DNA from: an uncultured Holophagales bacterium | Lineage (GTDB): Bacteria > Acidobacteriota > Thermoanaerobaculia > Multivoradales > UBA5704 | DNA: 64,000 nt | NCBI GenBank assembly: GCA_963842525.1 | Contig: CAWJGT010000014.1 | Location: 32,001-96,000, forward strand | Direction of reading: 5' to 3' | Part shown: positions 16,087 through 64,000 of the stretch, in pieces | Numbering within the stretch: the first letter of the stretch is position 1 | How the letters are laid out: each line of letters opens with the position of its first letter | Program-made: the position numbers and the translations under genes | Notes under the pieces: model-generated | What the model was told of the DNA's origin: nothing | What the model saw: the letters and a program-made list of their open reading frames with translations, nothing else | The model's database searches: none

Positions 16087-16240
16087 ACCCTCACCCCCCG
16101 TCCCCCTCTCCCATCCGCACTCACGCCCACCCGGGAGAGGGGGCGCCACCGCCCAAAGCCTTGAAAAAACGAGCGTTGGGGGTTCCCCCTCTCCCGGGAG
16201 GATGGGCGTGCGGATGGGAGAGGGGGTCAGGGGGTGAGGG
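16087..16240. repeat. REP-like palindromic element, class A
   Basis: ACCCTCACCCCCCGTCCCCCTCTCCC ... GGGAGAGGGGGTCAGGGGGTGAGGGT; same architecture as 5970..6114. Confidence 0.85.
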
Positions 16241-39350: not shown

Positions 39351-39452
39351 CGTTAGATCCTGACATTCGTGGGCTCGCGCAAACCGCCTCAACGACGTCC
39401 CCCCTCTCCCGGTCGGAGGGAGGGCGATGGGAGAGGGGGACAGGGGGTGAGG

Positions 39453-40818
39453 CTACACAGCCATCGCGGCCCGGCTCGCGTAGCGCGGCACGGTGTGCAG
39501 GCGGCAGAGCTCCCGCACGCGGGCGATGACTCCTTCGCGGACCGCCCCGTCCAGCTCGTATTCGCGATCGCCCAGCGGACGGACGGCGGCGAGCACGCGG
39601 CGGACCAGGGCGGCACATTCCTCCATCTCCGGCGGCCCCATCTCACGCAGGGCCACGCTGTTGGTGCCCAGGCGCACGCCGCTGGTGATCACCTGGGCTC
39701 CGGGTATCCCCCGGAATGCGGTTCTTGTTGACCACGATATGGCACGCCTCCAACGCCCGCTCGGCCACGATGCCGGTCACCCCGGCGCTCCTGTGGACGT
39801 CCAGGATCACCAGGTGATTGTCCGTGCCGCCCGAGATCACCTCATACCCGTGGGCGGCGAAGCACAGCGCGAGCGCCTTGGCATCGTCCACGATCCGCCG
39901 CGCCAGACCGCGGAACTCCGGGGTGGTCAGCCGCGCCAGGGCCCGCGCCTTGGCGGCAATCACATTGAGCACGGGCGCCCCCTGGAAGAGCGGAAAGATC
40001 CCCTTCTGCATCGACTCGGCGAGCGTGCGGCCGAGCGCGCCGGGCGACGGCGCGTCCCAGTCCTTCCCCATCAGGATCAGGCCGCCCCGCGGGCCGTAGA
40101 GCTGCTTGTGCGTACAGGTGGTCGTGATGTGTGCATGATCGATCGGGCTGGGATGGAGCCCCGCCGCGACCAGCCCCGCAATATGCGTGATATCGGCGAG
40201 CAGCCACGCCCCGACCTCGTCGGCGATCTGCCGGAAGCGGGCGAAGTCGATGGTCCGCGGAAAGGCGGTCGTGCCGCAGATGATCAGCTTCGGCCGGTGC
40301 TCAAGGGCCAGCTCCCGCACCCGGTCGTAGTCGATGGCGCCGTCCGGGGTGACACCATACCCGACGGCATCGAAACAGCGGCCCGAGATCGAGACCTTGG
40401 CGCCGTGGGTCAGGTGCCCGCCCGCGCTCAGGTCCATGCCCAGCAGGGTGTCCCCCGGCCGCAGCAGGCTGAACATGACCACCTCGTTGGCAGTGGTCGC
40501 CGAATGGGCCTGCACATTGGCGTAGCGAGCGCCGAACGCGGCCTTGGCGCGGTCGATCGCCAAGCTCTCGATCTCGTCGATGACCTCGCAGCCGGCGTGG
40601 AACCGCGCACCCGGATACCCTTCCGCGGTCACATTGCCCGCCACCGTGGCAGTGCAGGCCAGGACGGACGGGTCCATCACACTGGAGGCCGCAACCAGGG
40701 TCAGGACCTCGCTCTGGCGCTGCAGCTCGCGCTCCAGCAGATCGGCCAGGAGCGGATCGTCCTGATACAGGAGATCGACCCCATTGGCGATGAAATCCCC
40801 CAGGCTCGTATCTCTCAT
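39453..40818 (-). CDS. Cluster-associated serine hydroxymethyltransferase-like PLP enzyme (GlyA paralog), frameshift near 39693
   Basis: AEGYPG, GGHLTHG, TCTHKQLYGPRGG, GGTDNHL, VNKNRIPGD, then TSGVRLGT in another frame. ATG overlaps the NRPS stop. Confidence 0.88.
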
Positions 40819-43800
40819 GGCCTCGCCTCCTCCAGAGGTTCTCCTTCGCGCTCCACCCGCTCCCGCTCCAACAGCATCCTCTGCACGTCGTCCTCCGACA
40901 GCTCGCTGAGCTGGAGGACCATGGCCGCGATCTCCTCCAGCTCGATCCCCTCGCTGCGACCGAGCGCCTCGGCCGTCGCCGCCACACCCGCCACCGTCGG
41001 GGCTTCGAGCAGGGCGCGCAGCGGCAGCTCGATCTGGAGCAGCGAGCGCAGCCGCGAGACCGCCTGGGTCGCGAGCAGCGAGTGCCCCCCCAGCTCGAAG
41101 AAGTTGTCCGTGGCCCCCACCTGCGGCGCCCCCAGGAGGTCGCTCCACACGCCGGCGATGACCGTCTCAATCGCCGTCCGCGGCGGCACGGGCTCGCGGG
41201 CGCCGGCCTGCACGGGCTCGGGATCCGGCAGGGCGCGGCGGTCCACCTTGCCGTTGGGCGACAGCGGCAGGGCGTTCAGGACAACCCAGGCCGTCGGGAC
41301 CATGGCCTCGGGCAGCCGGCCGCGCAGGAACGCCGCCAGATCGGAGGTCTCCACCGGCCGGCGCGGCACCACATAACCGACCAGCCGCGGCGCGCCGCCC
41401 GGCCCCGGCCGGGCCGTCACCACCGCCTCCTGCACCGCTTCGTGCTGCGCCAGGGCCGCGGTGATCTCCCCCAGCTCGATCCGTACGCCGCGCACTTTCA
41501 CCTGAAAATCGAGCCGCCCCAGCAGCTCGAGCTGGCCGTCCGGCCGCAGGCGCGCCAGGTCGCCCGTGCGATAGAGGCGGCTTCCCGGCTGGCCGCCAAA
41601 GAAACATCCAAAAGCATCGGGGACGAACTTCGAAGCCGTCAGGTCCGGCCGGCCGAAATAGCCGTGGCCGACGCCGATGCTGCCCAGCAGCAGCTCACCC
41701 GGAACGCCGACCGGCATCGGCTGCAGGAGCCGGTCGACCACATGCGCGCGCTGGTTGGCCATCGGCCGGCCGTAGGGGATGCTGCTCCACTCCGGCCGAA
41801 CTTCCTCCACGTTATAGATCGTGGAGTCCATCGAGACCTCGGTGGCACCGCCCAGGCTGATCACCGTGGCACCAGGCGCGAAGCGGCGAAGGCGGTCCGG
41901 CAGCGACAGCGGGATCCAGTCGCCGCCCAGCAAAACCAAGCGGAGATCGAGCCCCTCACTCCCTGCCCCATCCTTATTGTCCTTGACGTCCTTTGTGTCC
42001 TTTTGGCTCTCCAGATGCTGCACCAGCAGCTCCAGAAGCGCCGGCGCCGAGTGCCAGAGGGTGACCCGGTGCCGTTTCAGAAGCTCCGCCCAGCGCGCCG
42101 GATCGAGAGCGTCCGCGGCCCGCGGCAGCACGATCGCGGCGCCGGCCGCCAGGGTCCCGAAGACGTCGTAGGCGGTCATGTCGAAACCGAGCGAGGAAAC
42201 GGCCAGCAGCCGGTCGCCTGGCTCGACGTCGAAGCGCCGGTCGAAGTCCAGGAAGTTGTTGACCCGCCCGCGATGATCCAGCATGACCCCCTTGGGCGTG
42301 CCGGTCGATCCGGAGGTGTAGATCACATAGGCCGGGCTCTCCGGCATCGCCTGGGTCTCCAACGCGGTCGGTCCCTCCTGCCCCTCACTATTCAGAGTGT
42401 CGAGGCGGAGGACCGGCGCGCCATTCAAGAGCCCGCTTTTAAGCTTCGTTTGCGTGAGCAGTACAGCCGCCCGCGCGTCCTCTGCCATCAGAGCCAGCCG
42501 GGCCTGCGGATAGGCAGGGTCGAGTGGCACATAGGCGCCGCCAGCCTGCGCGATCCCTACCAGGCCGGCGACCATGTCCGTTGAACGCTCGACATTGATC
42601 CCTACCCGGTCGCCCGGCGTGACGCCCATCGAGCGCAGATGGCGGGCCAACTGGCTCGCCCGGTCCCGCAGCTCGCGGTAGGTCAGGCTCTCGTCCGCGG
42701 ACAGCACGGCCAGCGCCCCTGGGGCGCGCTCGGCCTGCTCCAGGAACAGGCTGTAGAGGGTGGCGTCCTCCGGGAAGTCGGTCCCCGTGTCGTTCCACTC
42801 GACACCGAGCTGATGCCGCTCCCCCGCCGACAGTAGCGGCAGCTCGGAGGCCGGCCGGTCCGGCTCGGCGAGAGCCGCGGTCAAAAGAGCCTCCCAATGG
42901 CCGAGCCAGCGATCGACCGTCGGCGCGTTCGAACAGGTCGGCGCTGTGCTCCACGCCGCCGCCCAGCCCTCCCTCGTTCTCGACCCCCATCAGGTCGAAA
43001 TCGAACTTGGCCGTGCCGCTGTGGAGATCGAGGGACGACAGCTCCAGGCCCGGCATGCGCAGCGGCGCAGCCGCCGGGGTGTTGTGCAGGGCGAACATGA
43101 CCTGGAAGAGCGGGTTGTGGCTGACGTCCCGCTCCGCGGTCGCGGCCTTGACCACCTCCTCGAACGGGAGGTCCTGGTGCCCGTAGGCGCCCAGCGTGAC
43201 CTCGCGCACCTGCTCCACCAATGCGCGGAAGCCGGGATCGCCCGCGAGATCGGCCCGCAGCACGAGCGTGTTGACGAAAAACCCGATCAGCCCCTCGATC
43301 TCGGCGCGGTTGCGGTTGGCGATCGGTGTGCCCACGGACAGGTCGGTCTGTCCGGTCAGGCGGTGGAGCAGCACGAAGAAGGCGGCGAGGCCGGTCATGA
43401 ACGGCGGCGCGCCCTGGCGCTGGCCGAGCTCACGGGCCGCGGACCACAGCCGCGGACCGATCCAGACCGGCCGGCGCCCGCCACGGAAGGTCGACACAGC
43501 CGACCGCCGCCGGTCCGCCGGAAGCTCCAGCACCGGCGGCGCGCCTGCCAGCCGCTTGCGCCACCAGGCGAGCTCGCGCTCCAGCGTCTCCCCCTGCAGC
43601 CGGCCGCGCTGCCAGACCGCAAAGTCGGCGTACTGGACCGGCAGCTCCGGCAGGCCGTGCCGCCGGCGCTCCCGGAAGGCCTCGTAGATCGTCGCGACCT
43701 CGCCGAAGAGCACGCCCACGGACCAGCCGTCCGCGGCGATATGGTGCAGGTTGACCAAGGCGATGTGCTCCTCAGGGCCGGTCCGCACGAGGGAGGCGCG

Positions 43801-45597
43801 GAAGAGAGTGTCCCGGGCCAGATCGAACGACCGCCCGGCCTCCTCCTGCGCCAGCCGCCGGACCTCGGCCTCCCGCGCCGCCTCCGGGACTTCCCGGAGA
43901 TCGATCACCGGCACCGCGAGATCGGGCGCGGCAACGATCACCTGGCGCGGCTGGCCCTCGGCCTCTGGAAACGTCGTACGGAGCGCCTCATGCCGGCGGA
44001 TGATCTCGCCGAGGGCCGCCCGGAAAGCCGGCACGTCGAGCGTGCCGCGCAGCCGCGCCGCGGCCGGGATGTTGTAGACCGGATTGCCCGGCTCCCACTG
44101 GTCCAGGAACCAGAGCCGCTGCTGCGCGAAGGACAGCGGCAGGTCGCCGTCGCGGGAAGCGCGCGGGATCGGCGGCGTCCCACCGTCCTTCTGCGCCGCC
44201 TTCTTGCGCAGCCGGAGCATCAACAGCGCCCGCTGCTCCGCCGTCAGCCCCGCCAGATCGCCTGGAGCCCCCTCCCCCGACCCCTCCCCCGCGCGGCCGC
44301 CACCCGCCACCCCGAGCGGGAGAGGGGCGCCACCATTCAACCCTCTCTCCTTCCCCCTCTCCCGTTCGGGGTGGCGGGCCGGGGGACGCACGGGAGAGGG
44401 GGCCAGGGGGTGAGGGCTCCGCCGGTCCGTCCGCTCCAGGATCGCCTCGAAAGGCTCCACGCCGAGGCCGACGACGAACCGGTGGGCCGCCTCGCGCGCC
44501 GCGGCCGACTGCCGGGCATAGAGGCCGGGATCACCGAGCAGCCGCGAGAGCGCCTCGCGCCAGGGGCCGATGTCCTGCGCCGGCACGACCGGCTCGGTGA
44601 CCTCGTTGGCATCCTGCCGATCGGTAAACTCCTCGATCGGGCGGACCGGTAGCACGAAGTCGGTCCCCAGCTTCGCCTCGGGCAGACCGCCGACGTCGCT
44701 CGCCAGCACCGGAATCCCCCGCAGCATCGCCTCGACGGCGGTGACGCCGAAAGCCTCCTGCCAGAGCGAGGGCATCAGCAGGACCCGGGTGCGCGCATAG
44801 ATCCGATCCACGTCATCAGCGGGCTCGAGCAGCGTGACGTTGGGCAGGGCTTCGAGCGCCTCCCGGTCCGGAGGCGTCGTCCCCCACGTCGGCACCGCCG
44901 CGAAGCGCACCCCTGGGAGGCTGCGAGCCAGCTCCAGGAAGATCGGCAGCCCCTTCACCGCGCAGGGATTGATCAGGGTGACGAAGCCGTCCGCATTGTC
45001 CTGCCCGAAGTCGGGAAACGGCCCGGAGCCGTAGATCGGAAAAGGAAAGACCTCGGCCTCCATCCCTCCCCACTGCCGGATGTAGCCGGCCACGAACCGG
45101 CTGACCGCCACGATCCGGTCCACCTGGCCGAGCATCCGGCTCCGCCGCTCGCTGGGATAGAACGCCTGCGGCCCGAACGGCAGGAAAGCCGGCGTATGGG
45201 AGAGATAGACGACCGGAGCGAGCTGCGCCTTGAGCGCCGCATCCAGCAGGTTCTGCGACGGGTCCTCCGATGACACCAGCACCCGGTCCGGCGCGAAGCT
45301 CCGGAGCCGCTCGACCAGCTCGGTCCGCAACCGCGCAGGGTCGGCCACCGCATGGACCTCGACGCCGCCGGAGCGGAACACATCGACGCCCTCACCCCGC
45401 TCCACTGCAATCCCCCGGGCCTCCAGCTTCGCAAGCACTTCCTCGCGTGTCCACCGGGACGGCACGGCCAGAGCCGGCACCACGGCCCGCACCACGTGAC
45501 CGCGTGCCGCAAGCCCCTCAGCCAACGCCCGGTTGCACTTGTTCGCCCCTCCTACAGCGGGGAACCACGGCAGATTCATGGTGAACAGGATCTTCAT
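40815..45597 (-). CDS. Glycosyltransferase (GT4-like)-C-A-T NRPS fusion, one frameshift at ~42928
   Basis: GT-B motif PSLWQEAFG..AVEAM..GIPVLASDVGGLPE; C domain HHIAADGWS; A domain YTSGSTGTPKG and LYRTGDL; PCP FFELGGHSL. Removing one base at 42928 gives EHSADLFDAPTVDRWLGHW and joins the two track ORFs. Confidence 0.85.
44264..44420. repeat. Class A REP element in frame within the GT-C linker
   Basis: Terminal inverted repeats and two internal hairpins; translated as SPHPLAPSPV...GEGSGEGA. Confidence 0.8.
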
Positions 45598-48269: not shown

Positions 48270-50682
48270 TTGCGAGAGATCCGACAAGCCATCCGCCGGC
48301 TCGTCCGTACCCCTGGGCTGGCGGTCGCCGCGATCCTCTGCGCCGCGCTGGGCGTCGGCGCCGTAGGAGCGAGCTTTTCGCTCGTCGAATCCGTCCTGCT
48401 GCGTCCCCTCCCCTATCCAGAGGCCGGACGCCTGGTGATGGTGTGGGAGCGGGCTCTCGACGGCTCCGCCGAGCAGATCGTCTGCTCCTGGGCCAATTTC
48501 CTCGACTGGCGGGAGCGGAGCCGGAGCTTCGACAGGTTCGCCGCCTTCAACGTCTGGTTCCCGAGCGTGACCGGGACCGACCGCCCCGAGCGCCTGCTCG
48601 GTGCCGAGGCTACTCCGGAATTCTTCTCCGTCCTGGGCGCCAAGCCTGCCCTCGGCCGGCTGTTCCACTCCGAGGAGGGGCAGCCAGGGCGCAATGCCGT
48701 GGTGGTGCTCGGCTACGGCCTCTGGCACAGACGGTTCGGCGGTGACCCACAGGTGCTCGGACGGCGGATCGAGCTGGATGGTGCTCCGTACAGCGTCGTC
48801 GGAGTGCTGTCTCCGGGCTTCCGGCACCCCGAGCCGCTCTACTTCGACGAAACCACGGAGCTCTGGAAGCCGCTGGCCATCGAGGCCGGCACGGTGCCCC
48901 GCAGCAGCCGCTTCCTGCGCACGATCGGCCGCCTCGCGCCGGGGGTCGCACTGGACGCGGCGCAGGCCGAGATGGATGGGACCGCACGGCAGCTCGAGCG
49001 GGAGCACCCGTCCGACAACGAAGGGCTCGGCGTGCGGCTCGTCCCCCTCCACGAGCAGGTGGTGGGCGAGGTCCGGCCCGTCCTGCGGCTCGCCTTCGCG
49101 GCGTCGTTCCTGGTCCTGCTCATCGCCTGCGCCAACATCTCGGGCCTGCTGTTGGCTGCTGCCATCGGCCGCTCGCGGGAGACCGCGGTGCGCGCCGCCC
49201 TCGGCGCCGGCCGTGGACGCCTCGCGGTCCCGCTCCTTCTCGACGCCCTGCTGTTGACGCTGGCGGGCGGTGCGGCAGGGCTGGCGGTCGCGTCTCCGGC
49301 GATGCGCCTGCTCCTGGCCCGGAGCCCCAAAGCCTTTCCGCGCGCCGAGGAGGTCGGGATCGACGGCCGCGTCCTCGCCATGGCGTTGGGAGCATGCCTC
49401 CTCGCGGCCGTGCTCGCGGCCCTGGCGCCGGCCCTGCGCGCGGTCGCGCAGCCGGCCGGCCGAGGTCCTCCAGGAGGGGAGCCCCGGCGCGGGGAGCGCG
49501 CGCGGCGGACGGCTGCTGGCCCTGCTGGTGGTCCTGGAGACCGCGCTCGCCCTGCCGCTCCTCGCCGGAACGGGCCTGCTGGCAAAGAGCCTCGCCGGGC
49601 TGTCCCAGGTCCCCCTCGGGTTCGCGGCGGAGGACGTGCTGACGCTGCGCCTGGAGCTGCCGGCCGGGACCTATCCGGAGGCGGCGGATCGGCGGGCCTT
49701 CGCCGAGCGCCTCCTGGAACGGGTCGCCGCGCTGCAAGGCGTCCGGTCAGCCGGGCTCACCTCGACTCTTCCCCTCTCGGGGCTCTATGACATCAGCCGC
49801 GAGGCCATCCTCGATCCGCCGCCGCCCCAAGGGCCGGCTTCGATGCAGGCGGGATACCGGTCCGTCAGCCCCGGCTATTTTCAGGCTTTGGGCATCCCCG
49901 TCCTGGCCGGACGGCCCTTCGGCTCGGGGGACGGTCCCGAAGCGTTCGACGTGGCGCTGGTCAACCGGGCCTTTGCCAAGGCCGCCTGGGGTGACGCGAG
50001 CCCGCTCGGCCGAAAGGTAGTGCTGCGGAGCACGTCCGGCGACGTGACCCGGGAGGTCGTAGGCCTGGTCGGCGACGTGCGCCACGAAGGTCCGGCCGTG
50101 GAGCCGAAGCCGGAGATCTTCGTGCCGCAGTCCCAGAGCCCGACCCGCTTCGCGGCGTTGGTGGTGCGGGCCGAGGGGAGGACCGAGGCTCTGGCCGGCG
50201 CGCTCCGGAATGCGGTCCGCGAGATCGATCCGGATCTGCCGGCCGAGATTCGACCGATGGCCGAGCTGACGCACGGCGCCACAGCAGGGCCGCGCTTTCA
50301 GCTTCTGGTCGCCGGTCTACTCGGCACGGCCGCCGTGATCCTGGTGGCCGCGGGGATCGGCGGCGTAACCGCCTATTCGACGGCGCGGCGGACCCGCGAG
50401 ATCGGCATCCGCATGGCGCTCGGCGCCGGGCGGCGCGAGATCCTCCTCCTGGTGCTCCGCCGTGCTCTCGGGCTGACGCTGGCCGGCACGGTGCTCGGTC
50501 TGGCCGGCGCCCGGATCCTCACCCGCGGCATCGCCGGAATGCTTTTCGGGGTCGAGCCGGCCGACCCGGCAATGCTGGCCGCCGCGGCCCTGCTCCTCCT
50601 GCTGGTCGGTCTGGCCGCCGGCTGGCTCCCGGCCCGCCGCGCCCTAGGGGTCGATCCCGCCTCGGCACTGCGGTCGGAGTGA
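48270..50682 (+). CDS. ADOP-type ABC permease, frameshift near 49445
   Basis: LLRPLPYPEAGRLV, VLLIACANI and ETAVRAALGAGR. The second half (EIGIRMALGA, WLPARRA..VDP..ALRSE) is in another frame. Confidence 0.85.
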
Positions 50683-50683
50683 G

Positions 50684-50887
50684 GCCTCACCCCCTGTCCC
50701 CCTCTCCCATCGCCCTCCCACCAACCGGGAGAGGGGGGACGTAGCTCGGGCTTGCAGGCGAGGTCGAGGCTTTTTCATGAGGGAGCCCCTGAGGAGCTCC
50801 GGCAAGCTACCTCCTCAGAGCAGCAACCACGTCCCCCCTCTCCCGGGGGAAGGGAGGGAGATGGGAGAGGGGGACAGGGGGTGAGGA
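50684..50887. repeat. Class A REP element (two hairpin halves)
   Basis: CCTCACCCCCTGTCCCCCTCTCCC ... GGGAGAGGGGGACAGGGGGTGAGG between convergent genes. Confidence 0.85.
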
Positions 50888-50890
50888 CAC

Positions 50891-51670
50891 CTACCCCACG
50901 AGATACCCCGCCGCCCGCATCTCCTCGAACAAGCCGGCCGGCAGCCCCGTGCGCGTGCAGAGATCCTCCACGGAGCTCTCTCCGTCGCACGCGGCAAGCG
51001 CCCTCCCCTGCCCGGCGGGGATCGACTTCATCGCCACCCGGCCCACGCCCGAGGCCGTGAGGAGCAGCCAGTGTTCCCCTTCCGGCAGGCCGTCCGGAGC
51101 CTGCTTCGCATCGAGAGCCTGGAGCACGGCGTCCGGATCGTGCCGGTAGCGGACCACCCGGCAGAGAGGATGGAGACGGAGGACGCAGGCGTCCGGAGCG
51201 GCGGTGGAGGGGGGCTCCGCGGGCGGCTGCCAGGCGCCGCCGGCTCGCCCCAGGTGGAGCATCGCCACCTCCGTCTCCAGCACCTCCTTGACGAAGCCGT
51301 TCACCAGACTGCCGTCGCGGAGCCGGGCGACGAGAAAATCCGCGAAGCTCAAGGCCTCGCGCAGGTAGATCTGCGTCTCCGGGGGGTGCTCGCTCCAGTA
51401 GGCCTGCACCATCTCCTTGAGCCCGCGCGGGCCGAGCACCCGGCAGGTGCGCGGCAGGGTGTTCGAGAGCATGCTCAGGCGGTTGGCGCGGTGGAGCATC
51501 GTCCCGGTCCGCAGCCTCGGGTCCTTCGCCAGCGTTTCGAGACGCCGCCGCTCCCGTGCGGAGAGGTCGAACGCGGCGAGGCTCTGCTCCGGGTCTTCGG
51601 CGACCCGCGCCCGGAAGGCGGACGACATCACCAGCTCGGAAAACGCCTGCTGGAAACCTTGGAGAGACAC
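50891..51670 (-). CDS. Putative MNIO partner protein (DUF2063/HvfC-like RiPP-recognition chaperone)
   Basis: Directly downstream of DUF692. MSLQGFQQAF...LSNTLPRT..VLG.....MVQAYW..HP......EA..FADFL pattern and a winged-helix-like C-terminus. Confidence 0.7.
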   Translation of the reverse strand: MSLQGFQQAFSELVMSSAFRARVAEDPEQSLAAFDLSARERRRLETLAKDPRLRTGTMLHRANRLSMLSNTLPRTCRVLGPRGLKEMVQAYWSEHPPETQIYLREALSFADFLVARLRDGSLVNGFVKEVLETEVAMLHLGRAGGAWQPPAEPPSTAAPDACVLRLHPLCRVVRYRHDPDAVLQALDAKQAPDGLPEGEHWLLLTASGVGRVAMKSIPAGQGRALAACDGESSVEDLCTRTGLPAGLFEEMRAAGYLVG

Positions 51671-51679
51671 CGGATGCGG

Positions 51680-52586
51680 TCAGGCGCGGCGGTCGAGGGC
51701 CTCCCGGGCCTTGCGCAGCTCCTGGCGCAGCGGCTCGGGGCCGATGCTGGGGAAATAGTTGCCGAACATCTCGAAGACCACCCCCGCCAGGTTCGGCGTC
51801 CGCGGCAGGGTCTCGTCGAGCATCCGCCATACCTCTTCCGGACAGGGGCCGCTGTGCGCGTCGAGGTACACGCCGTCCACCTCCATGCCGCCGCCGAGGT
51901 GGACCTCGACCACGCGCGTGAGATCCAGCCCGTCCAGGAGCTCCATGGGATCGAACCCGTGATTGCGGGCATTGACATAGACGTTGTGGAGGTCGAGCAG
52001 CAGGCCGCAGCCGGTCCGGGCCGACAGCCGGTTGAGGAACTCCGCCTCGCCCATCTCCTGCTCGGGGATGTCGAAGTAGTAGACGTTGTTCTCCAGCAGG
52101 AAGGGGACCGGCACCTCGGCCTGGACGTGCCCGACCCGCTCGCTGAGCATGTCGAGCACCGCCTCGTCATACGGCACCGGCAGGGTCAGGCCGACGTCGA
52201 CCGAATGGCCCGACGGGCTCTCCAGCCGGATGAACGAGAGGTGGTCGCTGTGCCAGGGGAATCCGTAGCGCCGCTGCCAGGCGGAGATCTGGTCCACGTG
52301 CCCGGTGTTCGAACCGGTCTGCGCTGCCGATCGACAGGCCGACACTGTGGGCCACAATGGGCTTGTGCTCCGCGACCCGGTCGAGAAACGGCTTCGAGTC
52401 CGGGTTCTCGCGATAGCGGCCGGGCGTCCCGGTCCCCTGGTCGGTCCAGAAGATGTCGGGGATGATCTCCAGGAAGTCGAAGCTGTCGAGGTTCTCGAGG
52501 ACGAAGTCGCGCAGCGGTCCCTGGTAGGAAAGGCCCACGCCGAGCTTCGGCAATGCGTCGAGACGGTTGTTGGGGAGGCTGGACAT
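51680..52586 (-). CDS. DUF692 multinuclear non-heme iron-dependent oxidative enzyme (MNIO), frameshift at ~52308
   Basis: GVGLSY, DFLEI, HSVGLSIGS, WHSDHLSF, LLENNVYY, LLLDLHNVYVNARN, EVHLGGG, YLDAHS and VVFE. Confidence 0.9.
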
Positions 52587-52643
52587 CAGGCTCCTGGTGT
52601 GGAACGCGCACGCCCGGAGGCGTGCGCGCATCACGGCCAGTCG

Positions 52644-52799
52644 TCAGTCGAAGAGGGCTTCCTGGAAGCCGCCGTCGCCGATGATCGTCGGATCGACGCC
52701 GGACAGGCAGGTCGGGCAGCTCTCGGTGGGGACCTTCGTCAAGTGCTCGGGGGCGTTGACCTCGGCCTTCTCTTCGACTTCCATGACTCTGTTCTCCAT
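52644..52799 (-). CDS. Putative RiPP precursor peptide 2 (51 aa): MENRVMEVEEKAEVNAPEHLTKVPTESCPTCLSGVDPTIIGDGGFQEALFD
   Basis: Manual translation; RBS AAAGGAGG; paralog of 52877..53032; immediately upstream of DUF692; below the ORF-track length cutoff. Confidence 0.88.
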   Translation of the reverse strand: MENRVMEVEEKAEVNAPEHLTKVPTESCPTCLSGVDPTIIGDGGFQEALFD

Positions 52800-52876
52800 C
52801 GGCTCCTCCTTTAGGGGCTCGGGCGTTCTACTTTCTTTAGGTGCGCGGTTGCGATCTTTCCGGGACCAGCCGGTCG

Positions 52877-53032
52877 TCAGTCGACGAGAGCTTCCTGGAA
52901 GCCGCCGTCGCCGATGATCGTCGGATCGATGCCGGACCTGCAGGTCGGGCAGCTCTCGGTGGGGACGATCGCCGCGAGCTCGGGGGTGTTGACCTCCGGC
53001 TTCTCTTCGACGTTCATGACCTTGTTCTCCAT
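52877..53032 (-). CDS. Putative RiPP precursor peptide 1 (51 aa): MENKVMNVEEKPEVNTPELAAIVPTESCPTCRSGIDPTIIGDGGFQEALVD
   Basis: Manual translation; RBS AAAGGAGG; C-terminal half nearly identical to the other copy. Confidence 0.88.
   Translation of the reverse strand: MENKVMNVEEKPEVNTPELAAIVPTESCPTCRSGIDPTIIGDGGFQEALVD

Positions 53033-53116: not shown

Positions 53117-64000
<10,884 letters not shown>

What the first reader, a model, noticed from the sequence alone, without database searches (positions are those of the whole stretch)
50891..53032. MNIO (DUF692) RiPP locus with two unannotated tandem precursors carrying an internal S-C-P-T-C motif
Seen: two 51-aa ORFs with strong RBSs, missing from the ORF track, sit directly upstream of a DUF692 gene and a DUF2063-like partner on the same strand. 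Their N-terminal halves are acidic and variable. Their C-terminal halves are almost invariant (VPTESCPTCxSG[IV]DPTIIGDGGFQEALxD). Established: MNIOs such as MbnB, TglH, ChrH and HvfB modify precursor peptides, mostly at Cys, with a partner protein, and ChrH acts on a C-terminal CPAC-type motif. Inference: these peptides are the MNIO substrates. An internal CPTC followed by a 20-aa conserved tail and no signal peptide matches no precursor family I recognise, so the chemistry may be new.
Basis: partly seen in the sequence, partly recalled or inferred. Interest (0 to 1): 0.88.

Follow-up and report, generated by a model that had tools for sequence, protein, structure and literature searches.

The report
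Uncharacterised MNIO peptide-modification operon, CxxCxSG precursors
A soil acidobacterium carries a small operon in which an iron enzyme and its helper protein probably modify the cysteines of two tiny peptides, and the peptide family it belongs to occurs in several phyla but has never been studied chemically.

Summary
On the minus strand lie two 51-aa ORFs with strong ribosome-binding sites (52877-53032 and 52644-52799), a DUF692/MNIO gene (51680-52586) and a DUF2063-type partner (50891-51670).

The MNIO is split by one extra base at 52308. Contigs of relatives in 4 of 4 metagenome runs lack that base. The assembly shows about five times more frameshift-like breaks than three comparison genomes, so an assembly error is likelier than a pseudogene (about 70:30).

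The peptides are not orphans. In 24 of 24 loci of this MNIO clade that have upstream DNA, a homologous small ORF precedes the MNIO; 23 carry C-x-x-C-x-S-G and one carries H-x-x-C-x-S-G. The clade spans Acidobacteriota, Gemmatimonadota, Actinomycetota and Pseudomonadota records. The partner follows the MNIO in 28 of 28 loci.

A three-chain model supports binding (ipSAE 0.73, best control 0.00). It places the conserved acidic C-terminal tail on the partner's helical domain.

The enzyme scores below every curated cut-off (BufB, HvfB, ApyH, ChrH, MbnB), so the chemistry cannot be read from homology. My best guess is oxidative cysteine heterocyclisation. A 2025 survey's "adjamnio-7" group (CxxC, no signal peptide) may be the same superfamily. 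I rate this a new variant of a known kind and a good experimental lead.

The parts
52877..53032 (-). Precursor peptide A1, 51 aa (stop codon included). Acidic variable N-half, then C-P-T-C-R-S-G at residues 28-34, then a 17-residue acidic tail.
   Evidence: ORF and translation. AAGGAGG lies 6 nt upstream of the ATG. It matches 28 homologues in the 5.8-billion-protein set. Invariant family columns are M1 E2 C28 C31 S33 G34 D36 P37 F45 L49.
52644..52799 (-). Precursor peptide A2, 51 aa, a tandem duplicate of A1 (78% aa identity) with its own Shine-Dalgarno sequence.
   Evidence: the DNA alignment of the two units includes the SD. Contigs of relatives join across one copy (joints 52812>53064 in X1 and X5, 52867>53114 in X2). 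The two-copy state is therefore a recent duplication.
51680..52586 (-). MNIO (DUF692, PF05114) gene, about 302 codons, interrupted by one extra base. The N-part reads to ..SIGSADRFE and the C-part resumes at TGHVDQISAW.. in another frame.
   Evidence: Pfam hits on the two pieces cover profile positions 1-68 and 65-261 of 263. It is the only MNIO gene in the genome.
52308..52309 (.). Site of the single-base insertion (one extra T on the + strand, A on the coding strand) that breaks the MNIO frame.
   Evidence: One base is 'left out' at 52308 in the covering contig of each of 4 of 4 runs laid. Removing it restores ..DRFDTGHVDQ.., which aligns with DPFDTEHVEQ and DYFDTAHVEQ of the orthologues. 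My GC3-phase scan finds the break independently, at 52315.
50891..51670 (-). Partner protein (a PME: DUF2063 helical domain plus a C-terminal winged-helix/RRE-like domain), 259 aa, GTG start 9 nt after the MNIO stop.
   Evidence: Pfam DUF2063 29.6 bits against GA 27.2; NCBIfam HvfC 3.1e-7 and ApyI 1.4e-6, both far below cut-off. AF2 model pLDDT 91.7. Foldseek: TglI 8hi7_A E 8.8e-7, TMq 0.63; NGO1945 3dee E 7e-5. A homologue follows the MNIO in 28 of 28 clade loci.
50685..50886 (.). Inverted pair of a 24-nt G-rich repeat element directly downstream of the partner. It marks the end of the operon and separates it from the convergent permease gene.
   Evidence: Exact copies at 50685-50708 (-) and 50863-50886 (+). 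There are 7 copies in the window against 0 expected. Contig depth at this element is very high in the metagenomes (1623 against about 16 in X2).

Best explanation
This is a minimal three-component MNIO RiPP operon with gene order A1-A2-B-C. It belongs to a small, uncharacterised MNIO clade found in several phyla.

Shown or strongly supported:
- The clade's substrates are small peptides or small proteins without signal peptides. They share C-x-x-C-x-S-G followed by an acidic tail of 11-32 residues.
- The partner is a TglI/NGO1945-like two-domain protein.
- The gene order is fixed.

Inferred from a predicted complex and from the conservation pattern:
- The partner grips the conserved C-terminal tail, which acts as a 'follower' rather than an N-terminal leader. 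The grip uses two helices of the partner's DUF2063 domain.
- This places the CxxCxSG loop against the MNIO segment D243-A-H245 and N277/Y278. I take these to be part of the iron site; that residue mapping is recalled, not computed.

Inferred chemistry, about 0.4 on its own:
- The multi-iron centre uses O2 to carry out a four-electron oxidation of the second Cys, the one in C-x-S-G, and possibly of both Cys.
- The product is a 5-thiooxazole-type heterocycle, giving a compact N/S metal-binding site on an acidic peptide.
- No protease or exporter is conserved beside the operon, so the product may act at full length.

In this assembly the MNIO carries a one-base insertion. I take it to be an assembly error (about 0.7) rather than a real pseudogene.
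For: Domains.

Co-occurrence: the search for related loci with the MNIO gave 28 named loci. Of these, 24 have at least 300 nt upstream. In 23 there is at least one SD-preceded small ORF with CxxCxSG within 13-625 nt upstream on the same strand. The 24th, L024, has a clear homologue reading H-P-G-C-L-S-G. A partner homologue lies directly downstream in 28 of 28.

Motif: in the 30-peptide alignment only M1, C, C, S and G are invariant. All 122 family proteins gathered have C..C.SG and 120 have exactly two Cys. That count is partly circular, because they were found with profiles that contain the motif.

Co-evolution: peptide types map onto the MNIO tree with 6 changes, the minimum possible; shuffled labels average 14.3 and reach 6 in 0 of 200 trials.

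Binding model: ipSAE 0.73, 0.77 and 0.72 in three runs; best of 3 controls 0.00. The tool states that 58 of 80 solved complexes and 2 of 110 mismatched pairs reach the mark. Runs share at least 74% of contacts and the peptide pLDDT is 55-58. Confident contacts are peptide residues 18-20, 29-36 and 38-48; partner residues 54-89 and 102-103; MNIO residues 133-135, 235-246 and 277-278.

Partner fold.

Frameshift as artefact: relatives' contigs lack the base in 4 of 4 runs. Six ADOP permease genes are split into adjacent pieces in different frames, beside about 25 intact copies. An NRPS module is split between its C domain and its A-T domains at about 42.9 kb. There are 255 phase-switch candidates per 6.15 Mb of confident coding sequence, against 5 per 0.63 Mb in samples of three other genomes (binomial p 1.4e-6).

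Hint for a metal-ligand role: the only substitution of the first Cys is to His (n = 1).
Against: - No experiment bears on this. The chemistry is a guess.
- The enzyme is about equally distant from BufB (170 bits), HvfB (137), ApyH (127) and TglH (PDB 136 bits), which catalyse different reactions.
- Thiooxazole-forming MNIOs so far go with Sec-signal precursors and clear PME-type-1 partners (PMC12452194, section 19). Here there is no signal peptide and the partner passes DUF2063 only narrowly.
- The motif looks more like ChrA's CPxCGxG than like EGKCG.
- The complex model could pass from memory, because TglHI and MbnBC structures are solved. Cys24 and Cys27 themselves are not among its confident contacts, and the peptide pLDDT is only 55-58.
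- The model used an orthologous trio (L011), not the window's own broken enzyme.
- The frameshift is not in a long homopolymer (T to TT). No run holds this strain (at most 13% of words), so a real pseudogene is not excluded.
- The comparison genomes for the frameshift scan are few, 0.8 Mb in all.
Confidence: 0.75

Rival explanations
1. ChrH/DybH-like chemistry. The two Cys of C-P-T-C-x-S-G are joined: the second Cys is oxidised to a thioaldehyde, the backbone rearranges, and the first Cys closes a macrocycle. This would be a -4 Da product rather than independent heterocycles.
For: The motifs resemble each other: CPxCGxG in the ChrH subfamily (PMC13056109, passages) against C-P-T-C-x-S-G here. 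CPTC is the commonest form, in 49 of 122 peptides. Both Cys are kept in 122 of 122 peptides. Myxobacterial ChrA-like peptides also carry the motif internally (same paper).
Against: - The NCBIfam ChrH score is the second-lowest of the five models (69 bits against a cut-off of 600).
- ChrH-family enzymes carry an extra C-terminal helical bundle of about 7.8 kDa and mostly lack a DUF2063 partner (PMC13056109). Here the MNIO ends with the Pfam domain and always has a partner.
- The residue after the second Cys is Gly in ChrA but variable here.
- One clade member has His in place of the first Cys.
Confidence: 0.2
2. The locus is dead in this strain. The frameshift at 52308 is real, the MNIO is a pseudogene, and the peptides are unmodified relics.
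For: The break stands in the assembly. It is not in a long homopolymer. It is the genome's only MNIO gene. Some ADOP copies also carry in-frame stops, which indel errors alone would not produce.
Against: - Both peptide genes, their SDs and the partner are intact.
- A2 is a recent duplicate whose conserved half is kept.
- The assembly has about five times the comparison rate of frameshift-like switches, and 3 split genes in this 64-kb window.
- Relatives in 4 of 4 runs are intact at the site.
Confidence: 0.3
3. The RiPP cassette is a working part of the surrounding NRPS gene cluster, a hybrid pathway, and not an independent operon.
For: It starts 84 nt after the stop of a >3,600-aa NRPS gene on the same strand. 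No terminator-like site lies between them. The same NRPS C-terminus precedes it in two same-genus genomes. A second NRPS gene lies 5 kb downstream on the same strand.
Against: In another same-genus genome the upstream neighbours are a conserved small ORF and a methyltransferase-like ORF, judged by eye from its sequence. In another genus the upstream neighbour is an unidentified opposite-strand ORF. Across 29 loci nothing but the MNIO and the partner is conserved.
Confidence: 0.08
4. The small CxxC peptides are not substrates. They serve the enzyme as a metal or redox accessory, or act as regulators.
For: A lone CxxC is a common metal or redox motif (CPHC occurs in 2 of 122 peptides). The long forms of the family are predicted to be folded small proteins (pLDDT 85).
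Against: In every characterised MNIO system the small gene upstream of the enzyme is its substrate (PMC12452194, sections 13 and 17). The peptide gene is often present in several copies. The model places the peptide across both enzyme subunits.
Confidence: 0.05

Closest known systems
ChrA/ChrH(I) and DybA/DybH (chryseobasin-type MNIO RiPPs)
   Same: A two-Cys substrate motif with Pro after the first Cys and Gly at +3 from the second (CPxCGxG against CPTCxSG). An MNIO acts on Cys near the C-terminus. Some members have the motif embedded in the peptide.
   Different: The enzyme is only distantly related (ChrH model 69 bits against a cut-off of 600). It has no C-terminal helical-bundle extension. 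A DUF2063-type partner is always present. The precursors have no Sec or lipoprotein signal. The motif is always followed by a tail of 11-32 residues, and position +1 after the second Cys is variable rather than Gly.
Bufferins, oxazolins and captophorins (BufABC, HvfABC, FonABC)
   Same: Same gene order of precursor, MNIO, DUF2063/RRE partner. The best profile scores of the MNIO are to BufB and HvfB. Cys is the presumed target. Tandem precursor genes also occur in those systems.
   Different: Scores are about half the curated cut-offs (170 of 310; 137 of 360). There is no Sec signal. No DoxX gene appeared among the conserved neighbours, though I did not search for it specifically. The Cys context is different (CxxCxSG, not EGKCG or DUF2282). 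The partner does not match NGO1945 by sequence, only by fold.
TglHI (3-thiaglutamate / pearlin pathway)
   Same: The partner's best structural match is TglI (8hi7_A, E 8.8e-7). TglH is one of the two best PDB sequence matches of the MNIO. The precursor has no signal peptide.
   Different: TglH acts on a Cys that a PEARL enzyme adds to the C-terminus. No such enzyme is encoded here, and here the Cys residues are encoded in the gene and internal.
'adjamnio-7' putative precursors (Antoine et al. 2025, Microb Genom, PMC12452194)
   Same: They are described as signal-peptide-less putative precursors with a CxxC motif beside MNIOs of a small sequence cluster (#7). The representative has a folded AlphaFold model, as the long forms found here do.
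   Different: They are defined only bioinformatically. Their alignment (Fig. S3) is in a supplement I could not open, so identity with this superfamily is untested. The paper's main text does not mention Acidobacteria, and I saw no mention of the S-G part of the motif or the tail in the sections and passages I read.

Membership tests
MNIO / DUF692 (Pfam PF05114 MbnB_TglH_ChrH) | Match to the family profile above the gathering score over its full length | tested here: met
   The two pieces score 30.7 and 168 bits (cut-off 25) and cover profile positions 1-68 and 65-261 of 263. Intact orthologues are 301-303 aa.
MNIO / DUF692 (Pfam PF05114 MbnB_TglH_ChrH) | Uninterrupted reading frame in this genome | tested here: not met
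   One extra base at 52308 splits the frame. It is probably an assembly error but this is not proven.
MNIO / DUF692 (Pfam PF05114 MbnB_TglH_ChrH) | Conserved His/Asp/Glu iron ligands | tested here: inconclusive
   H81, H113, D115, H116, E166, D199, H201, E228, H230, D243, H245 and E273 are invariant in 25 clade members. Which of them bind iron is recalled from MbnB/TglH structures, not computed here.
PME partner of MNIO enzymes (DUF2063 + RRE-type domain) | DUF2063 signature and a two-domain fold like NGO1945 or TglI | tested here: met
   PF09836 scores 29.6 bits against 27.2, so it is borderline between 'type 1' and 'type 2'. The AF2 model has pLDDT 91.7, with helices 3-142 and a beta/alpha domain at 163-253. 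Foldseek: TglI E 8.8e-7, 3dee E 7e-5. There is no PDB hit by sequence profile.
Bufferin / HvfB-type thiooxazole maturases (NCBIfam NF050167, NF003818) | Score above the curated equivalog cut-off | tested here: not met
   On the intact orthologue: BufB 169.8 against 310; HvfB 137.4 against 360.
Bufferin / HvfB-type thiooxazole maturases (NCBIfam NF050167, NF003818) | Precursor with a Sec signal peptide and a DUF2282, 6/12-Cys or EGKCG signature | tested here: not met
   The N-termini are acidic with no hydrophobic stretch. No Pfam or NCBIfam family reaches its cut-off for either window peptide; the best is a chance-level E 0.083. No family reaches its cut-off for 10 other clade peptides either; four have chance-level Pfam matches at E 0.022-0.92.
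ChrH/DybH subfamily (NCBIfam NF050165) | Equivalog score; C-terminal helical-bundle extension; CPxCGxG at the peptide end | tested here: not met
   69.4 bits against 600. The MNIO ends at profile position 261 of 263 with no extension. The motif is CPTCxSG with 17 more residues after it.
Methanobactin MbnB/MbnC | MbnB equivalog score and an MbnC partner | tested here: not met
   19.1 bits against 325. The partner has a DUF2063/TglI-like fold, not MbnC.
ApyH (aminopyruvatide) | Equivalog score; C-terminal Asp substrate | tested here: not met
   126.8 bits against 400. The window peptides do end in Asp, but the C-terminal residue varies across the close family: D, V, L, R, K, M and S occur.
adjamnio-7 (Antoine et al. 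2025) | Sequence membership in their precursor alignment or MNIO cluster #7 | not testable with these tools
   Only the verbal description was readable: CxxC, no signal peptide, next to an MNIO. Supplements are closed, and the representative accession could not be fetched.

The most novel reading that the evidence does not exclude
This MNIO clade performs a reaction not yet seen in the family on an invariant C-x-x-C-x-S-G loop, with the invariant Ser-Gly taking part. It recognises its substrate through a C-terminal follower that binds the DUF2063 helical domain, not through an N-terminal leader on the RRE. Its ancestral substrates are folded proteins of 65-90 aa, and the 40-55-aa peptides, including the two here, arose from them at least twice by loss of the N-terminal domain. 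The product would be a new kind of small metal-binding or redox cofactor-like peptide made by soil Acidobacteriota and Gemmatimonadota.
Probability: 0.3. Interest if true: 0.8.

Novelty: new variant of a known kind. Interest (0 to 1): 0.6.

Why it matters
By the papers listed, most MNIO clades examined so far have given a new peptide reaction: oxazolone-thioamide, beta-carbon excision, hydantoin macrocycle, thiooxazole, aminopyruvate, ortho-tyrosine.

This clade is small. Twelve of 6,153 MNIO-like representatives score above 300 bits with its profile. It is well defined and has a minimal three-gene cassette, a sharply conserved seven-residue target and short substrates. That makes a co-expression and mass-spectrometry experiment straightforward.

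It also offers two tests. One is whether an MNIO partner can read a C-terminal follower. The other is a natural series running from folded-protein substrates to peptide substrates.

The phyla that carry the clade here were not linked to MNIOs in any paper my searches returned.

Tried and rejected
- A single-sequence search found only 5 proteins. Matches in relatives were confined to one genus: 3 of 5 other same-genus genomes and 0 of 55 in other genera. Profiles were needed to see the wider family.
- The phylum scan with the close-family profile found 4 of 401 genomes, counting the window's own. The two weak matches (G252, G302; E 0.003-0.004; loci L009, L010) carry C-x-x-C-x-S-G-like strings. 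I did not check whether an MNIO lies beside them.
- Pfam and NCBIfam gave nothing above cut-off on the peptides.
- The ESM Atlas gave no usable hit: best 0.86 for the window peptide, none for P0083.
- The search of earlier findings returned nothing.
- Foldseek on the long-form precursor model gave no PDB match better than E 0.21.
- The partner matched no PDB chain by sequence.
- Neighbour-gene clustering found no conserved protease, transporter or DoxX across the clade. A convergent ADOP permease follows the operon in 4 loci (the window, L011, L014, L015). This genome holds about 30 ADOP genes, so I do not claim a link.
- The 80-aa ORF that sits between the NRPS and the precursor in three same-genus loci is not in this genome (E 0.88).
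- pN/pS between A1 and A2 rests on too few differences to use.
- Sequencing runs: none holds more than 13% of the sampled words, so the source strain could not be checked.
- The promoter and terminator scan gave nothing useful.
- Literature searches for MNIO with Acidobacteria, CxxC, Gemmatimonadota/Longimicrobium/Thermoanaerobaculia/Holophaga, or DUF692 with CPTC found no paper on this family apart from the 2025 survey.
Full report
WHAT IS THERE

The locus reads on the minus strand. From upstream to downstream it holds four genes.
- Peptide A1 (52877-53032) and peptide A2 (52644-52799). Each is 51 aa and each has an AAGGAGG-type ribosome-binding site 4-6 nt before its ATG.
- A DUF692/MNIO gene (51680-52586).
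- Nine bases after the MNIO stop, a 259-aa gene with a GTG start (50891-51670).

Pfam places the MNIO in PF05114, but as two pieces in different frames covering profile positions 1-68 and 65-261 of 263. It places the last gene in DUF2063, just above the cut-off (29.6 against 27.2 bits).

The two peptides are 78% identical. Only 3 of their last 29 residues differ. They are strongly acidic, have exactly two Cys and have no signal-like hydrophobic stretch.

THE FRAMESHIFT

Alignment with intact 301-303-aa orthologues from same-genus genomes puts the break between ..SIGSADRFE and TGHVDQ...

I laid contigs of four soil or rhizosphere metagenome runs from four studies on the region. The covering contig in each of the 4 runs lacks one base at 52308. 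Without that base the gene reads ..DRFDTGHVDQ.. in one frame. Those contigs are relatives, not this strain; one is about 91.5% identical over 1,972 bases. No run held more than 13% of the sampled words. The insertion is therefore private to this assembly or lineage.

Three observations suggest the assembly is prone to indels.
- Six ADOP permease genes are split into adjacent pieces in different frames, beside about 25 intact copies. One of the six is the convergent gene just downstream of this operon.
- An NRPS module at about 42.9 kb is split between its C domain and its A-T domains.
- A GC3-phase scan that I wrote recovers the MNIO break at 52315. It finds 255 such switches in 6.15 Mb of confidently coding sequence (41.5 per Mb), against 5 in 0.63 Mb (8.0 per Mb) in samples of three other genomes of the phylum (binomial p 1.4e-6).

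I put an assembly error at about 0.7. The site is not a long homopolymer and the comparison set is small, so a real pseudogene stays open. This is the genome's only MNIO gene.

THE PEPTIDE FAMILY

The window peptide alone finds 5 proteins among 5.8 billion. A profile of close relatives finds 28. In that close family M1, E2, the two Cys, S-G, D-P, F45 and L49 are invariant.

The more informative route was through the enzyme. A scan of one genome per species with an MNIO alignment returned 28 loci at 48-100% identity. Their record titles name:
- Thermoanaerobaculia, Holophagales, Solibacteraceae, Acidobacteriaceae and other Acidobacteriota;
- Longimicrobium and Gemmatimonadales;
- Solirubrobacterales;
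- one gamma- and one beta-proteobacterial MAG.

Four of the 28 loci lack upstream DNA. In 23 of the remaining 24, one or two SD-preceded small ORFs with C-x-x-C-x-S-G lie just upstream on the same strand. The 24th (L024) has an obvious homologue reading H-P-G-C-L-S-G. A homologue of the partner follows the MNIO in 28 of 28 loci. No other gene is conserved across the 29 loci compared.

In an alignment of 30 such peptides, only the initial Met and C, C, S, G are invariant. The motif is always followed by a mostly acidic tail of 11-32 residues, typically 15-20.

A profile of these 30 peptides retrieved 99 proteins at E <= 0.1. With those found earlier this makes 122 family proteins. All are named hypothetical or have no informative name, and one comes from a cultured Chitinophaga. 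All 122 have C..C.SG and 120 have exactly two Cys. That count is partly circular.

The clade-wide signature is CxxCxSG plus some acidic tail.

LONG AND SHORT FORMS

About half of the family are proteins of 65-90 aa. An AF2 model of one of them (pLDDT 85) is a small beta-beta-alpha ... beta-beta-beta fold. The motif sits on a loop and the tail forms strands. The model has no significant PDB neighbour.

On an MNIO tree the short types each form one or two groups, while the long type is scattered through both halves of the tree. The window's type, together with its sister short type, is one clade (support 98/95) next to a long-form group. The root is only a midpoint root, so the direction of change is an inference. 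The simplest reading is that short peptides arose from long forms more than once.

THE ENZYME AND PARTNER AGAINST KNOWN GROUPS

On an intact orthologue the curated NCBIfam models score as follows:

| Model | Score (bits) | Cut-off (bits) |
|---|---|---|
| BufB | 170 | 310 |
| HvfB | 137 | 360 |
| ApyH | 127 | 400 |
| ChrH | 69 | 600 |
| MbnB | 19 | 325 |

With the clade profile, the best PDB chains are 3bww (145 bits) and TglH 8hci (136 bits). MbnB is far behind. In a library of 1.84 billion representatives, 6,153 proteins match the clade profile at E <= 0.001 and only 12 exceed 300 bits. The clade is a small separate branch, roughly equidistant from enzymes with different chemistries.

The partner has no PDB match by sequence. 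Its AF2 model (pLDDT 91.7) matches TglI (E 8.8e-7, TMq 0.63) and NGO1945 (E 7e-5).

DO THEY BIND?

I sent one three-chain job: the MNIO, partner and 49-aa precursor of locus L011, each with an alignment, and with the peptide as the scored chain.
- The score was 0.73 (runs 0.73, 0.77, 0.72). The best of 3 controls was 0.00.
- The tool's calibration gives 58 of 80 solved complexes and 2 of 110 mismatched pairs reaching the mark.
- The runs agree in at least 74% of contacts, and the peptide pLDDT is 55-58.

The model supports binding but does not show it. TglHI and MbnBC complexes are solved, so part of the pass may reflect likeness to them.

The least-error contacts join peptide residues 35-45 (the ..LFQEAL.. 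tail) to partner residues 54-89. In the AF2 model of the window's partner, which aligns residue for residue with L011's over this stretch, these are two helices of the DUF2063 domain. Peptide residues 18-20 and 29-36 and MNIO residues 133-135, 235-246 and 277-278 are also in confident contact. The first 17 residues of the peptide make no confident contact.

This fits the conservation pattern of a variable N-half and a conserved C-half. It suggests recognition through a C-terminal follower. That reading is an inference from a model.

CHEMISTRY

Nothing computed here fixes the reaction.

For a thiooxazole-type heterocycle:
- the nearest profiles are BufB and HvfB;
- the partner is of the DUF2063/RRE kind;
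- the one natural replacement of the first Cys is His, a conservative swap for a metal ligand (n = 1).

For a ChrH-like crosslink:
- the motif resembles CPxCGxG (PMC13056109, passages; PMC10214503, abstract);
- both Cys are strictly kept.

Against the ChrH-like reading, the ChrH model's score is the second-lowest of the five, the helical extension is missing, and a partner is present.

The invariant Ser-Gly has no counterpart in any described MNIO substrate that I read about, which leaves room for something new. My split is about 0.4 heterocycle, 0.2 ChrH-like and 0.4 other.

LITERATURE

I read the following:
- the outline, abstract, sections 13 and 17-19, and passages of Antoine et al. 2025 (PMC12452194), plus passages of its preprint;
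- passages of PMC13056109 and PMC13097082;
- the abstract of PMC10214503;
- the abstract and opening of PMC13733907.

Other titles I saw only in search listings.

The survey names 'adjamnio-7': signal-less putative precursors with a CxxC motif beside MNIO cluster #7, with a folded model for a Novilysobacter representative. This may be the long form of the same superfamily. The alignment is in a supplement I could not open.

The same paper reports that signal-less precursors go with 'type 2' partners. The borderline DUF2063 score here fits that trend loosely.

My searches found no paper that links MNIOs with Acidobacteria beyond a single mention in the bufferin paper. None linked MNIOs with Gemmatimonadota, Longimicrobium or Thermoanaerobaculia, and none linked DUF692 with CPTC.

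CONTEXT

The cassette begins 84 nt after a >3,600-aa NRPS gene on the same strand. The same NRPS end precedes it in two same-genus genomes. It does not in a third same-genus genome, in another genus or elsewhere in the clade. I treat the NRPS as a neighbour.

VERDICT

This is a real MNIO RiPP cassette, probably intact in life. It has an uncharacterised precursor superfamily found in several phyla. It is a new variant of a known kind and a good, cheap experimental lead. It is not a demonstrated new chemistry.

Noticed in passing
window 16089-16112, 16216-16239, 39429-39452, 44392-44415, 50685-50708, 50863-50886, 53683-53706: A 24-nt G-rich repeat core occurs 7 times in the window (0 expected from shuffles). 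Two pairs are inverted. One copy lies inside the NRPS reading frame, in a linker that differs from the orthologues. Contigs carrying the element reach very high summed depth in soil metagenomes.
   Followed up: partly
window 48270-50682 (+), break near 49444-49451: The convergent ADOP-family (MacB-like) permease downstream of the operon is split into two frames. Five further ADOP genes elsewhere in the genome are split the same way. An ADOP gene also lies convergent downstream of the cassette in L011, L014 and L015.
   Followed up: partly
window 40815-45597 (-), break near 42.9 kb: A second NRPS gene (GT4 glycosyltransferase, then C domain, then A-T domains) is split by a frameshift between the C and A domains. 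With the large NRPS at 53117-64000, the RiPP cassette therefore sits between NRPS genes on the same strand.
   Followed up: partly
L005:1180-1422, L006:1790-2056 (-), L007:1173-1400: A conserved ORF of 75-88 aa (..LLR.VLRKRQPSSLW..LTPAQRDSI..) sits between the upstream gene and the precursor in three same-genus genomes. It has no NCBIfam match and is not found in this genome. One metagenome relative has 803 extra bases at the same place.
   Followed up: partly
window 51520-51670 (-), partner residues 7-51: The partner's N-terminal helices give weak matches to NHLP-type RiPP leader families: Pfam Frankia_peptide E 0.0012; NCBIfam Os1348 family E 1.7e-4; Foldseek 6lk7_C Os1348 with TMt 0.77 but E 0.73. 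This hints at a shared helical module between DUF2063 domains and NHLP leaders.
   Followed up: no
L024:3000-4060 (+), frame 2: One clade member, in a Solirubrobacterales record, has His in place of the first Cys of the motif (H-P-G-C-L-S-G) in an otherwise typical long-form precursor.
   Followed up: no
L021, L028, L029 upstream of the precursor; L024, L030 downstream: Subclade-specific neighbours. A trypsin-like protease ORF lies upstream in the L021/L028/L029 group. An ABC ATPase plus UPF0014 (FetB-like) permease lies downstream in the two Solirubrobacterales loci.
   Followed up: partly
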